From: an uncultured bacterium | GTDB lineage: Bacteria > Krumholzibacteriota > Krumholzibacteriia > JACNKJ01 | Assembly (NCBI GenBank): GCA_963695095.1 | Contig: CAVOFT010000001.1 | Coordinates: 1,600,001-1,664,000, forward strand | Direction: 5' to 3' | DNA: 64,000 nucleotides | Shown: in pieces, positions 24,001 through 27,000 of the stretch | Numbering within the stretch: the first letter of the stretch is position 1 | Layout of the letters: every line of letters begins with the position of its first letter | Program-made: the position numbers

Positions 24001-27000
24001 AGGCCGCGCCTTCGCGCTGAAGGCCGGCCCGGCTGTCGGGGGCCTCCTGCCTGTAGCGCTGGCTCTCGAAGGCGGTCACGGTCTCGCCGAGTACGGCCTC
24101 GGCCTCGCCGAGCCGGCCGAGAGCGAAGAGGGCCTCGCCCTCCAGCGCCCGCACCGAATTGAGCAGGGGGCCGTGCTCGAGCGCGGCGATCTCGGGCTTC
24201 AGGTCGCGCGCAGCGGCCAGGCAATCCGCGGCGCGGCCGGCGTCCAGCAGGAGACCGAGGCGGGCCTCGCGGCAGCGCGCCGCATAGTAGCGTTCGCCGG
24301 CGGCGTCCAGGGTGGCGATGCCGGTCTCGAGCCGAGGCAGCGCTTCGTCGCCGCGCCCCAGGGCGTCGAGGAGAGCGGCGCGACGCACGATGGCGAGGCC
24401 CAGGGCGTCCGTCCGTCCGGCCACTCTGGCCAGGGCGAGCGCCGAGTCCGCCCAGGCCAGCGCCTCCACCTGCCGTCCGAGCTGGGCCATCAGCAGGGTG
24501 CGGCGCATCAGCGTCGACAGCTGACCGCCCACGTTGCCCGCCAGGCGATCCCAGCGCTCGGCCTGCAGTGTTGCGTCCAGGGCCTCGCCCACGCGGCCCA
24601 GTTCCTGGTAGCTGTTGGCGATGTTGCCCCAGGTCACGCCCAGGCCGAAGCTGTCACCCAGGGCCTCGCGCAAGGGTATCATCTCGATCCAGCTGGCCAC
24701 GGCCTCTTCGCTGCGGCCGGCGGCCGCCCGCCCCACGGCGATCGCATTGAGCAGGCTGACTTCCGTCCTGGGCTCTCCGTGCCGGCGCAGCATGGCCAGG
24801 CCCCGCTGCCAGGTCGTCTCGGCCTCCTTCAGATGTCCGAAGCGGAAGGCGTGAATGCCCGCCCATTCGTAGCCGCGGCCCGCCGGCCCCAGGAGGCCGG
24901 CGGCTTCCAGGCTGTCCGCCAGGGCGAGCAGGGCGCCGCAATGGGCGAGCCGCTCGCTCTCGCTGCTGGGTTTGCTCGGATAGAGGGCGGCGGCCCGCGC
25001 CATCAGCCACGTGGAGTCGGCGGCCGCCGGCGCCGCCTGAGGCCGCTCGGGAACAGCCGTGCTCAGCACTGCGCCCAGGAGCAGGGGAAGCAGGGCCAAG
25101 CGTGGCTGTGGTCCTTGGCGTCGCATGTGGGCCGATTCCAGTATATTGCCTATCGACAATGGTTTGTAGCCATCGATCCTAGTCGATCTGTCGCCATGGC
25201 GCCAGCTATTTTGGATCGCGGTCGGTCCCTCGCCGCCAGCGCTACCTTTTTCTCGCCTCGCGCTTGACATGTATACGGACGTATAGTAGTTTCTCCGTCG
25301 ATGCAGGGCGCTGCGGCCTGGCCTGCGTCGGAGGTTGCTCGCCCGTGTTCAGGTCCTCCCCCGCCCTGGCTCACGTCGACATGGACGCTTTCTACGCCTC
25401 CGTGGAACAGCGGGATTTTCCCGAGTTGCGGGGGCGGCCCGTCGTGGTGGGCGGCAGCGATCCCACGCGGCGGGGCGTGGTCTCGGCAGCCAGCTACGAG
25501 GCGCGGCGCTTCGGCATCCACAGCGCGATGCCCCTGCGCACGGCCTTCCGGCTCTGCCCCCAGGCCTGCTTCGTGGCCGGTCGCATGGAGGTCTACGTGG
25601 CCGAGAGCAAGCGCATCATGGCCATCCTGCGCGAGCATTCCCCGCGCGTGCAGCCGCTCAGCCTGGACGAGGCCTTCCTGGACCTCAGCGGCACCGAGCT
25701 GCTCTTCGGACCGCCGGAGGGCACCCTGCGCCGGATCAAGGCGCGGATCCGGGAGGAGACGGGCCTGGTCTGCTCGGCCGGCCTGGCGCCGGTGAAGTTC
25801 GTGGCGAAGATCGCCTCGGATCTGGAGAAGCCCGACGGCTTCACCGTGGTGCCGCCGGACGGCGTGCTGGACTTCCTGCGCCCCCTGCCCGTGGGCCGGC
25901 TCTGGGGCGTGGGGCCCAGGACCCTGGCCCGGCTCCAGGAGCTGGGCATCGCCAGCATCGGCGATCTGGACCGCCTGGGCGAGGCCGAACTGGAGCGCCT
26001 CTTCGGCCGCTGGGGCACGCGGCTGGCCCGCCTGGCGCGGGGCGAGGATCCCCGCGGGGTGGAGGCCGAGCGGCCTGACGAGAAGTCCGTCGGCCACGAG
26101 CACACCTTCGCCGAGGATCAGGACGAGGCGCGGGTGCTGGAGCGCACCCTGCTGGAGCTGGCCGAGAAGGTGGCCCGTCGCCTGCGCCGGCAGGGCGTGG
26201 CCGGCCGCACGCTGACGCTCAAGCTGCGCACGGCCTCCTTCCGCACGCTGAGCCGATCCGTCACCGGCAGCGAGTACCTGGACCAGGGCCTGCTCATCTT
26301 CCAGACCGCCCGGCGCCTGATGAACGCGGTGGACCGCCGGGGAGAGAAGGTGCGGCTGCTGGGCATCTCGCTGCGCAATCTGATCCCCCGGGACGCCGTG
26401 CCCGGCAGCCTCTTCGCCGGCGAAGCGCCGGAGCGCGAGGCGAAGCTGGACGGCGCCATCGACGAACTGGGGGAGCGTTTTGGGCGCGGGGCCGTTCAGC
26501 GGGCCCGCCTGCTGGGAAGGAGTCGCTCATGATCATGCGCGAGGGCGGGCAAATCGACCTCTTTGTCGCGGGGGCCGCGGCGCCGCCGCGTCGCCCCCGA
26601 GCCGACCTGGACCTGGAGGCGGCCCTGGCCAATGCCCGCCGCTTCCTGGCCACAGGCAGTCACCCCGGGGACTCCCGGGCCAATCAGGCCCATCTTCCCG
26701 GTCTCCCGGGAGGCCCCGAGATCTTCGCCCTCTGCCCGGGCTGTTCGGTGCATCCGGACGGCGGCATCTTCCCGGCGGCCGAACTGGCCCGGGTGGAGGG
26801 CTGCCCCGCCGGCCCGCGCCTCGCGGCGCAGCTGGCGGCGGCCAGCGCCTTGACCGGGGGGGAGGGGCGCCAGTGGGCCGAAAGGGAGGGTTCGGCTCGC
26901 AGGGTTCCGGCAGAGCGAAACTCGCTCTCCCGCTCCTTCTCCCCGGGCATCATCGGCACCCGCCCCTGGGGGCGGGTGCCTGTCGACTTCTCCTTGACGG

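What a model noticed while it worked through the whole genome (the two positions that open the first line are those of the whole stretch)
25272..25285. LexA (SOS) box of this Krumholzibacteriota family: TATAC-RNNY-GTATA, with a small regulon that leaves out recA
The palindrome TATAC-RNNY-GTATA sits between the -35 and -10 boxes of the dinB-orf-lexA operon and is the LexA operator of family JACNKJ01. Matching sites precede the repair genes mrfA (464236) and mrfB (470914) and the HNH-element gene g00313 (377219). recA, uvrA, recN, ruvC and dnaE2 have none in this genome.
Evidence so far: An exact site lies upstream of dinB-lexA in G000 and 8 relatives, and 2-mismatch sites in the other two assessable ones (11 of 11; G004 is cut by a contig end), always just after TTGAC. 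mrfA: site with at most 3 mismatches at the same promoter position in 9 of 9 loci with full upstream DNA (208). mrfB: 1 mismatch here, exact in G004-G007 (20). An HNH gene in G001 also has a 1-mismatch site (20). The reversed-pattern control gives 0 in G000 (19, 25). Best match upstream of recA has 4-6 mismatches in 11 of 12 genomes (211); other SOS genes 4-6 here (208). In another family exact sites precede a dnaE2-like gene in 2 genomes (25, 26). Listings of searches 22 and 210 showed no such motif.
(Added by a program. Inside this text positions count along the whole contig: contig position 1,600,001 is position 1 of the stretch shown here. "Call 12" and the like, gene names such as g00115 and contig names such as C1 are that model's own, and its searches are not shown. 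The text may have been shortened before it was handed on; [...] marks where a part breaks off. The agent that wrote the report below was given it as the finding of a first reader that could run no searches.)

Follow-up and report, generated by a model that had tools for sequence, protein, structure and literature searches.

The report
Widespread undescribed LexA (SOS) operator variant
This short palindrome is very probably where the DNA-damage repressor LexA shuts off an error-prone polymerase operon, and the same sequence, which I could not find described, sits in front of lexA and repair genes in many unrelated uncultured bacteria, so it is a new dialect of a well-known switch rather than a new kind of system.

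Summary
The palindrome TATAC-GGAC-GTATA (25272-25285) is real. It fills the 17-bp spacer of the dinB-orf-lexA promoter and does not overlap the -10. It is kept in 11 of 11 assessable family genomes and recurs before mrfA (9 of 9) and mrfB (8 of 11). lexA is the genome's only S24 peptidase found and looks cleavable. recA has a site in 1 of 12 family genomes and 1 of 27 other phylum members. The motif is not family-specific. Polymerase-lexA promoters of four other families carry xxxAC-RNNY-GTxxx variants in the same place. A GTDB scan for promoter plus box gave 102 loci, 66 before lexA (29) or SOS-type genes, in about eight phyla. It shares the TAC-N4-GTA core with the cyanobacterial box and AC-N4-GT with the Bacillus box, and recA-less LexA regulons are already known. 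The HNH-gene site may instead be bound by the HNH protein; mraZ is doubtful. No binding or expression data. The scan noted similar, possibly identical, variant boxes on other DNA (e1-5119063). Verdict: new variant of a known kind; LexA operator about 0.9; interest 0.45.

The parts
25264..25269 (+). -35 hexamer TTGACA of the dinB-orf-lexA promoter
   Evidence: TTGAC nearly invariant in 11 aligned family promoters
25272..25285 (.). LexA operator TATAC-GGAC-GTATA (5-4-5 palindrome), spacer positions 3-16 of 17
   Evidence: TATAC invariant in 11 of 11, GTATA in 10 of 11, centre variable
25287..25292 (+). -10 hexamer TAGTTT (TAnnnT; only 3 of 6 to consensus; inferred from spacing)
   Evidence: same register with TATAAT-like hexamers in other lineages; strict scanner negative
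25345..26532 (+). dinB, DNA polymerase IV (GTG start, GGAGG at 25330-25334)
   Evidence: Pfam IMS E 7e-49; NCBIfam PRK02406 and PRK02794 above cut-off
26529..27170 (+). 213-aa family-restricted ORF with invariant Cys/His (ALCPGCxxHxxGG, further C); its end overlaps the lexA start; function unknown
   Evidence: found in 11 of 11 relatives; alignment; no Pfam hit; 11 hits at E<=1e-10 among 1.84 billion representatives; no Atlas hit
27119..27751 (+). lexA, 210 aa; helix 3 SPRGVQDHL; Ala-Gly cleavage bond and catalytic Ser/Lys intact
   Evidence: Pfam, TIGR00498 above cut-off, alignment, PDB alignment; only lexA and only S24 peptidase found in G000

Best explanation
The site is the operator of the LexA encoded at the end of the same operon. 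A LexA dimer bound between -35 and -10 blocks RNA polymerase, repressing dinB, the orphan ORF and lexA itself. After DNA damage, RecA filaments trigger LexA self-cleavage and the operon, mrfA and mrfB (mitomycin-repair helicase and exonuclease homologues) are derepressed. recA, uvr, ruv and recN are outside the regulon in nearly all genomes, and recA probably runs from an unregulated sigma-70 promoter. Shown: sequence, position, conservation, co-occurrence with lexA, intact catalytic residues. Inferred: binding, repression, cleavage, induction, and constitutive recA. The box is one dialect of a xxxAC-RNNY-GTxxx family, used by one of two LexA clades of the phylum and by LexAs of several other phyla.
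For: Arms conserved and centre free in 11 of 11 family promoters. A matrix built only from 10 relatives' dinB sites ranks dinB, mrfB, the HNH gene and mraZ at the top of 3044 called G000 genes (rank 2 is the divergent neighbour sharing the dinB site); the mrfA site scores 13.8, 75 bp before its true start. Only 1 of 239 predicted G000 promoters has TATAC at that spacer position. At mrfA the left half, which is no promoter element, is intact in 8 of 9. In other families the site stays in register while arms and LexA helix 3 change together: f5 TRWAC..GTWTA (8 of 8; SNRGVVDHL), f9 YATAC..GTATG (2 of 2), f3 CAAAC..GTTTS (9 of 9; STRSVHDHL), f2 TAMAC..GCAKC-like (5 of 5, two weak). GTDB scan: 102 loci; next gene lexA 29, dinB-type 9, ImuA-like 9, radical SAM of the Rv2578c/PA0069 type 8, TIGR03916-type radical SAM 6, mrfB 4, dnaE-like 1. 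19 of 21 full-length LexAs behind the box have Arg/Lys at E. coli position 41 and 18 of 21 Asp at 45, positions named as DNA-contacting in PMC3091678; 0 of 18 clade-B LexAs do, and most of their promoters carry TTCG-N7-TTCG-type repeats instead. Both recA exceptions use their own lineage's dialect.
Against: No binding or expression data. Outside family f1 the bare 14-mer is at chance level: 17 of 196 genomes against 28 of 196 for the reversed control. One of 29 permuted half-site matrices gave more high-scoring G000 sites (6) than the true one (3), so position rather than count carries the case. Family f8 has the dnaE-lexA operon but no site in 3 of 3. One LexA directly behind the box (L310) has a quite different helix 3, and f3 shares Arg41/Asp45 yet uses CAAAC. 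Of five other-phylum genomes checked, two Spirochaete lexA genes and one Latescibacterota lexA had no convincing site of their own. 36 of 102 GTDB loci are not before recognised SOS-type genes (5 DUF72, many Poribacteria sites without a clear ORF). That scan also demanded promoter letters and had no matched control. Kin are not independent, and the phylum-wide matrix was trained on the sites it scores.
Confidence: 0.9

Rival explanations
1. Another, unlinked repressor (not LexA) binds the palindrome and co-controls these repair genes.
For: No direct binding shown. f8 has this LexA clade without a site. Some genomes with the box lack it before their own lexA.
Against: lexA is the very next gene in 29 of 102 GTDB loci, from at least seven lineages. 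Site and helix 3 change together across families. No other S24 peptidase and no WYL protein were found in G000, which is 93.5% complete.
Confidence: 0.05
2. The conservation is promoter architecture (spacer and extended -10 preference), not an operator.
For: Box-less HNH promoters share ATAG just before their -10. In some HNH promoters one half of the box is the -10 itself. The GTDB pattern included promoter letters.
Against: TATAC directly after the -35 occurs in 1 of 239 predicted G000 promoters. The left half is the better kept half at mrfA. Symmetry is kept through paired changes across families, e.g. CATAC/GTATG and CAAAC/GTTTG, and f3 and G008 have second sites outside the spacer.
Confidence: 0.03
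3. For the HNH gene only (contig 377219): the site is the docking site of the HNH protein's own N-terminal DNA-binding part, not of LexA.
For: Other HNH subfamilies carry their own perfect palindrome inside the gene, while the copies with the promoter site mostly have none. The N-terminus has a weak DUF1016_N hit (E 0.015). The site can also be read as GATAC-N9-GTATC. G018 has 14 near-identical copies that are not independent. An earlier scan note (e1-7607641) proposes self-binding for paralogues.
Against: On the reverse strand the site sits in the dinB register (TTGMnn, 2 nt, box, 1 nt, TAnnnT) in G000, G017 and G018. The same GATAC..GTATA form precedes a tag glycosylase in G008, and a similar site precedes recA in G018. 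LexA control of multicopy 13E12 elements is known in M. tuberculosis (PMC3381160 passages).
Confidence: 0.35

Closest known systems
Cyanobacterial LexA box AGTAC-WNWT-GTACT (PMC3091678, passages read)
   Same: 14 bp, 5-4-5 dyad, TAC-N4-GTA core
   Different: outer two bases TA/TA instead of AG/CT; cyanobacterial sites precede recA, ssb and uvrA, these mostly do not
Gram-positive (Bacillus subtilis) box CGAAC-N4-GTTCG (PMC3091678, passage read)
   Same: 5-4-5 geometry and AC..GT core; the f3 dialect CAAAC..GTTTS is close to it
   Different: arms TATAC/GTATA; helix 3 has Arg at E. coli position 41; small regulon
LexA regulons without recA: Geobacter sulfurreducens, Bdellovibrio bacteriovorus, Deinococcus radiodurans (titles seen in the reference lists of PMC3789691, PMC8565304, PMC13148647; lexA-dinB linkage in Geobacter recalled)
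   Same: autoregulated lexA tied to an error-prone polymerase; recA outside
   Different: different boxes (GGTT-N10-AACC, TTAC-N3-GTAA; PMC8565304 passage); here mrfA and mrfB have been added
Fibrobacter TGCNC-N4-GTGCA and Verrucomicrobia TGTTC-N4-GAACA boxes (recalled; the Verrucomicrobia paper was not held)
   Same: 14-bp 5-4-5 palindromes of phylum-specific sequence
   Different: different arms
Balneolaeota LexA motif TTACACATATTTTWTACATA (PMC7739468, passage read)
   Same: FCB-group LexA; TACAY-like units; controls polymerases, a helicase and a radical SAM protein
   Different: direct repeat, not a palindrome; includes recA
LexA-bound 13E12 repeat genes of Mycobacterium tuberculosis (PMC3381160, passages read)
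   Same: multicopy mobile-looking genes with an SOS box in the promoter (HNH domain of that family recalled)
   Different: no DUF222 (PF02720) match here; only a subfamily has the site

Membership tests
LexA operator (SOS box) | Conserved dyad (or direct repeat) overlapping the promoter of the lexA transcription unit | tested here: met
   in the -35/-10 spacer in 11 of 11 assessable family genomes; co-transcription of dinB-orf-lexA inferred from overlapping stop/start codons
LexA operator (SOS box) | Cognate canonical LexA with wHTH and S24 domains, Ala-Gly bond, Ser/Lys dyad | tested here: met
LexA operator (SOS box) | Recurs at translesion or repair genes | tested here: met
   mrfA 9 of 9, mrfB 8 of 11; 66 of 102 GTDB loci
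LexA operator (SOS box) | Site before recA (canonical SOS regulon) | tested here: not met
   1 of 12 in the family, 1 of 27 elsewhere in the phylum, no exact site in 27 recA loci of other phyla; not required for membership, given published recA-less regulons
LexA operator (SOS box) | Specific binding by LexA and RecA-dependent damage induction | not testable with these tools
   uncultured organism; the RNA runs found hold only 0.05 of the words and are contigs
Gram-positive Cheo box CGAAC-N4-GTTCG | GAAC/GTTC arms | tested here: not met
   arms are TATAC/GTATA; geometry shared
Cyanobacterial box AGTAC-N4-GTACT | RGTAC/GTWCY arms | tested here: not met
   inner TAC/GTA met, outer AG/CT not
13E12 / DUF222-HNH elements (for the HNH gene) | DUF222 domain before the HNH domain | tested here: not met
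   no PF02720 hit up to E 5 for three family members; HNH hit in two
MrfA/MrfB repair pair | DEAD/DEAH helicase with MrfA Zn-binding domain; RNase_H_2 exonuclease | tested here: met
   PF00270+PF00271+PF09369 and PF13482; role in mitomycin C repair from abstracts in a search listing

The most novel reading that the evidence does not exclude
TATAC-RNNY-GTATA is an undescribed LexA dialect shared by about eight little-studied phyla, and in this family the multicopy HNH element carries it in a small two-way promoter cassette and spreads it around the genome. That would rebuild an SOS regulon around a polymerase-cassette LexA after loss of the second LexA clade: the similar site before recA in G018 and before tag in G008 would be such insertions, and the 33 TGTAC-ACGT-GTACA copies could be LexA decoys.
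Probability: 0.2. Interest if true: 0.7.

Novelty: new variant of a known kind. Interest (0 to 1): 0.45.

Why it matters
It supplies a predicted SOS box for Krumholzibacteriota and for lineages of Poribacteria, Spirochaetota, Desulfobaccales, WOR-3, Methylomirabilota, Hydrogenedentota, Armatimonadota and the Bacteroidota/Ignavibacteria group, so their damage regulons can be predicted. The phylum offers a natural series (TATAC, TRWAC, YATAC, CAAAC, TAMAC) with matching helix-3 changes, and two LexA clades with one lost in most of family f1. That makes the published duplication-divergence-retake model of SOS evolution (PMC8565304) directly testable by EMSA. LexA sites at mrfA and mrfB look like a family-specific gain. 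At least 17 LexA motifs and several recA-less regulons were already known, so the concept is not new.

Tried and rejected
Second LexA, other S24 repressor or WYL regulator in G000 that might control recA: none found (genome 93.5% complete). Clade-B direct repeats at recA: 2 of 39 upstream regions in the phylum, so not a recA regulator either. mrfA sites outside f1: none in 29 of 30 loci with upstream DNA, but mrfA often lies inside an operon whose promoter may be further up. mraZ as a regulon member: 2 of 11 genomes, one genus, about 55-70 bp upstream of the -35; not accepted. dprA (12.0) and radC (11.0) have weak sites in G000; conservation not checked. dnaE2-like gene and tag in G000: no site. 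Internal lexA promoter: a conserved TTGAC lies in the middle ORF but has no -10 at the right distance; read as coding conservation. The 33-copy palindrome as a parS or Noc site: only one ParB_N protein in G000, and 21 of 33 copies lie in HNH-like DNA; left as a probable HNH-element site, with LexA cross-binding not excluded (it sums to 16.0 on the weights). Atlas search for the middle ORF: no usable hit. The LexA tree is a quick, unrooted one without model-organism LexAs, so no origin is claimed. Gene calls in G000 are my own codon-score calls; the mrfA start was first miscalled and corrected.

Full report
Observation. TATACGGACGTATA lies at 25272-25285, two bases after TTGACA (25264-69) and one base before TAGTTT (25287-92), 73 bases before the GTG of dinB. 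It is the single match in the window at up to 2 mismatches and the single exact match in the genome, against 0.0007 expected. With a 17-bp spacer the box fills spacer positions 3-16 and does not overlap the -10. The -10 is inferred from spacing; it matches consensus at 3 of 6, and the strict scanner found no promoter.

Anatomy. Downstream lie dinB (25345-26532), a 213-aa ORF with invariant Cys/His residues that is almost confined to this family and lexA (27119-27751), with overlapping stops and starts. LexA has both domains, the Ala-Gly bond and the Ser/Lys pair. It is the only lexA and only S24 peptidase found in G000, and no WYL protein was found; the genome is 93.5% complete.

Family conservation. 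All 12 family genomes have this lexA. In the 11 with upstream DNA the site is exact in 9. G018 has perfect arms with a CTGG centre, and G008 has two tandem imperfect sites. Exact-pattern genomes are 10 of 12 in the family against 1 of 12 for the reversed control. Outside the family the figures are 17 of 196 against 28 of 196, so the bare 14-mer means nothing there without context.

Regulon in G000 and family. I built a matrix from 10 relatives' dinB sites only. With the 33-copy repeat masked, it ranks dinB first, then its divergent neighbour (same site), mrfB, the HNH gene and mraZ among 3044 called genes. recA is 804th, and uvrA (two), uvrB, recN, ruvA, ruvB, ssb, recG, mfd, uvrD, polA and mutS lie between 1581 and 2875. 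The mrfA site (13.8) is 75 bp before the corrected start at 464311. mrfA has an in-register site in 9 of 9 loci with full upstream DNA, of 12 loci returned, 8 with intact TATAC. mrfB has its own site in 8 of 11, and 2 of the other 3 lie directly behind mrfA. recA has a site only in G018, 1 of 12, in an extra upstream promoter. mraZ has one in 2 of 11, one genus. Against reading too much into counts: 1 of 29 permuted matrices gave more top-scoring sites than the true one. Against a pure promoter reading: 1 of 239 predicted promoters has TATAC at that position.

Phylum. There are two LexA groups (quick unrooted tree, supports 95 and 82). Group A ends a dinB- or dnaE-like operon. Its promoters carry a 5-4-5 site in the same register: f5 TRWAC-RNNY-GTWTA in 8 of 8 assessed, f9 YATAC..GTATG in 2 of 2, f3 CAAAC..GTTTS in 9 of 9 (G020's best site lies downstream of the promoter), f2 TAMAC..GCAKC-like in 5 of 5 (two weak, found only by register), and f8 none in 3 of 3. 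Three further loci were cut by contig ends. The f1-only matrix scores f5 at 16.6-29.0 and f9 at 13.8-23.8 without circularity. Helix 3 shifts with lineage: SPRGVQDHL, SNRGVVDHL, SPRS[AV]S.HL, STRSVHD[HY]L, STKGVNDHL. Group B has S-T-V-H-[EK]-H, and TTCG-N7-TTCG-type repeats in 17 of 18 upstream regions (19 loci examined, one being a group-A gene); in f1 only G015 keeps a copy, without the repeats. recA has a group-A site in 1 of 27 other phylum genomes with upstream DNA (G019, in the f3 dialect), and mrfA in none of 29. So recA exclusion is phylum-wide and mrfAB control looks like an f1 gain.

Other phyla. One scan of GTDB for TTGAC-N3/4-TATAC-RNNY-GTATA-GTA gave 102 loci (titles shown for 80). 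The next gene is lexA in 29 (25 by Pfam, 3 by tblastn, 1 by likeness), dinB-type in 9, ImuA-like RecA-fold in 9 (3 Pfam, 6 by similarity), radical SAM of the Rv2578c/PA0069 type in 8 (below cut-off; SplB-like by my recall), TIGR03916-type radical SAM in 6, mrfB in 4 and dnaE-like in 1. That is 66 of 102; 10 of them are f1-type dinB or mrfB loci. DUF72 follows in 5 more, and 31 are other or unclear. Such genes are well under 1% of a genome, but the scan had no matched control and kin are counted repeatedly. The lexA cases span records titled Bacteroidota, Ignavibacteria, Desulfobaccales, WOR-3, Methylomirabilota, Abyssobacteria and Armatimonadota; Poribacteria and Spirochaetes supply the cassette genes. 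Of 21 full-length LexAs behind the box, 19 have Arg/Lys at E. coli position 41 and 18 Asp at 45; PMC3091678 names these positions as DNA-contacting. L310 is an exception, and f3 shares both residues with another dialect, so they do not define the specificity alone. One Poribacteria lexA has a 2-mismatch site in register and one Planctomycetia-titled lexA has a near site; two Spirochaete and one Latescibacterota lexA have none. No exact site lies within 400 bp of 27 recA loci from 25 such genomes, though four score 15-17.5 on a matrix biased towards AT-rich DNA.

HNH gene. It belongs to a multicopy family. In G000 only 1 of 10 upstream regions has the site; among 30 family loci, 8 (7 genes) score 17 or more. 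G018 has 14 near-identical copies, at least 4 with no HNH-like ORF seen behind them. On the reverse strand these sites sit in the dinB register, so the cassette looks like two overlapping promoters with one box. G008 has the same form before a tag glycosylase. But the subfamily with this site mostly lacks the internal palindrome that other subfamilies carry, so self-binding by the HNH protein is a live rival (about 0.35). DUF222 was not matched.

Mechanism. LexA dimer in the spacer blocks RNA polymerase; RecA-stimulated self-cleavage frees dinB-orf-lexA, mrfA and mrfB. This follows established LexA biology (PMC8565304 passages). Binding, repression and induction are inferred, as is constitutive recA expression.

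Known work. The motif shares TAC-N4-GTA with the cyanobacterial box and AC-N4-GT with the Bacillus box (PMC3091678 passages). PMC8565304 counts 17 distinct LexA motifs and describes the duplication-divergence-retake model (passages). PMC7739468 gives a direct repeat for Balneolaeota (passages). recA-less LexA regulons appear as titles in reference lists. 13E12 genes are LexA-bound in M. tuberculosis (PMC3381160 passages). MrfA/B function comes from abstracts in a listing. I did not find this motif in listings of searches; the one paper hit (a haloarchaeal toxin-antitoxin study) I did not open. The library lacks most subscription papers, the Verrucomicrobia paper was not held, and no supplements or RegPrecise entries were read, so absence from print is not established. 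An earlier scan note (e1-5119063) describes a box at a DUF6504-dinB promoter and at lexA of several lineages. One of my hits precedes a DUF6504-like gene, so it may be the same motif; its letters are hidden.

Verdict. Real, very probably a LexA operator (0.9), broader than one family, and a new variant of a known kind. Interest 0.45.

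Noticed in passing
G000 C1, 33 places (e.g. 233772, 860255, 3083251): Perfect palindrome TGTACACGTGTACA in 33 copies, none between 1.57 and 2.73 Mb; 21 lie in HNH-like DNA. Related palindromes TTGCCACGTGGCAA (11) and TTGTCACGTGACAA (7). 28-38 copies of the TGTAC-MCGK-GTACA form in G017, G012, G013; none in G008, G010, G015, G016.
   Followed up: partly
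L264, L270, L274, L275 (G018); L083 (G008): About 45-bp two-way promoter cassette with the box, apparently without an HNH gene behind it; a similar site sits 280 bp before recA in G018 (L261).
   Followed up: partly
recA 5' leader, L098-L109: GGAAGATG(G/A)GCCG is conserved just after the recA promoter in 11 of 12 family genomes; G018, the one with a LexA-type site, has lost it. Possibly an RNA element or another operator.
   Followed up: no
L242-L259 (second LexA group of the phylum): TTCG-N7-TTCG-type direct repeats over the promoter in most group-B lexA genes; absent in G015.
   Followed up: partly
L311, L317, L323, L329, L331, L359, L368, L374, L386 (Poribacteria records): Several boxed promoters per genome with no recognised protein gene close behind; possibly small RNAs or small proteins under SOS control.
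   Followed up: no
L339, L379 (Latescibacterota records): Exact box in promoter register before a gyrB/parE-type topoisomerase gene; a TGCAC-AAAT-GAATA site in register before recA in the genome of L339.
   Followed up: no
window 26529-27170: Orphan Cys/His ORF between dinB and lexA; in f3 a different ORF of about 460 aa with no Pfam hit takes this place.
   Followed up: partly
G000 C1 151327 and 151851: parS-like sites next to parAB near dnaA.
   Followed up: no
G000 C1, 94 places: GC-rich palindrome CGCCCCCGGGGGCG in 94 copies, also scarce between 1.4 and 2.8 Mb; REP-like.
   Followed up: no
G000 C1 2102816 and 2380399: Weak box-like sites before dprA and radC (ranks 10 and 17 of 3044); conservation not checked.
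   Followed up: no
window 22682-25126 (-): Divergent TPR-CHAT domain gene shares the intergenic region with the dinB promoter.
   Followed up: no
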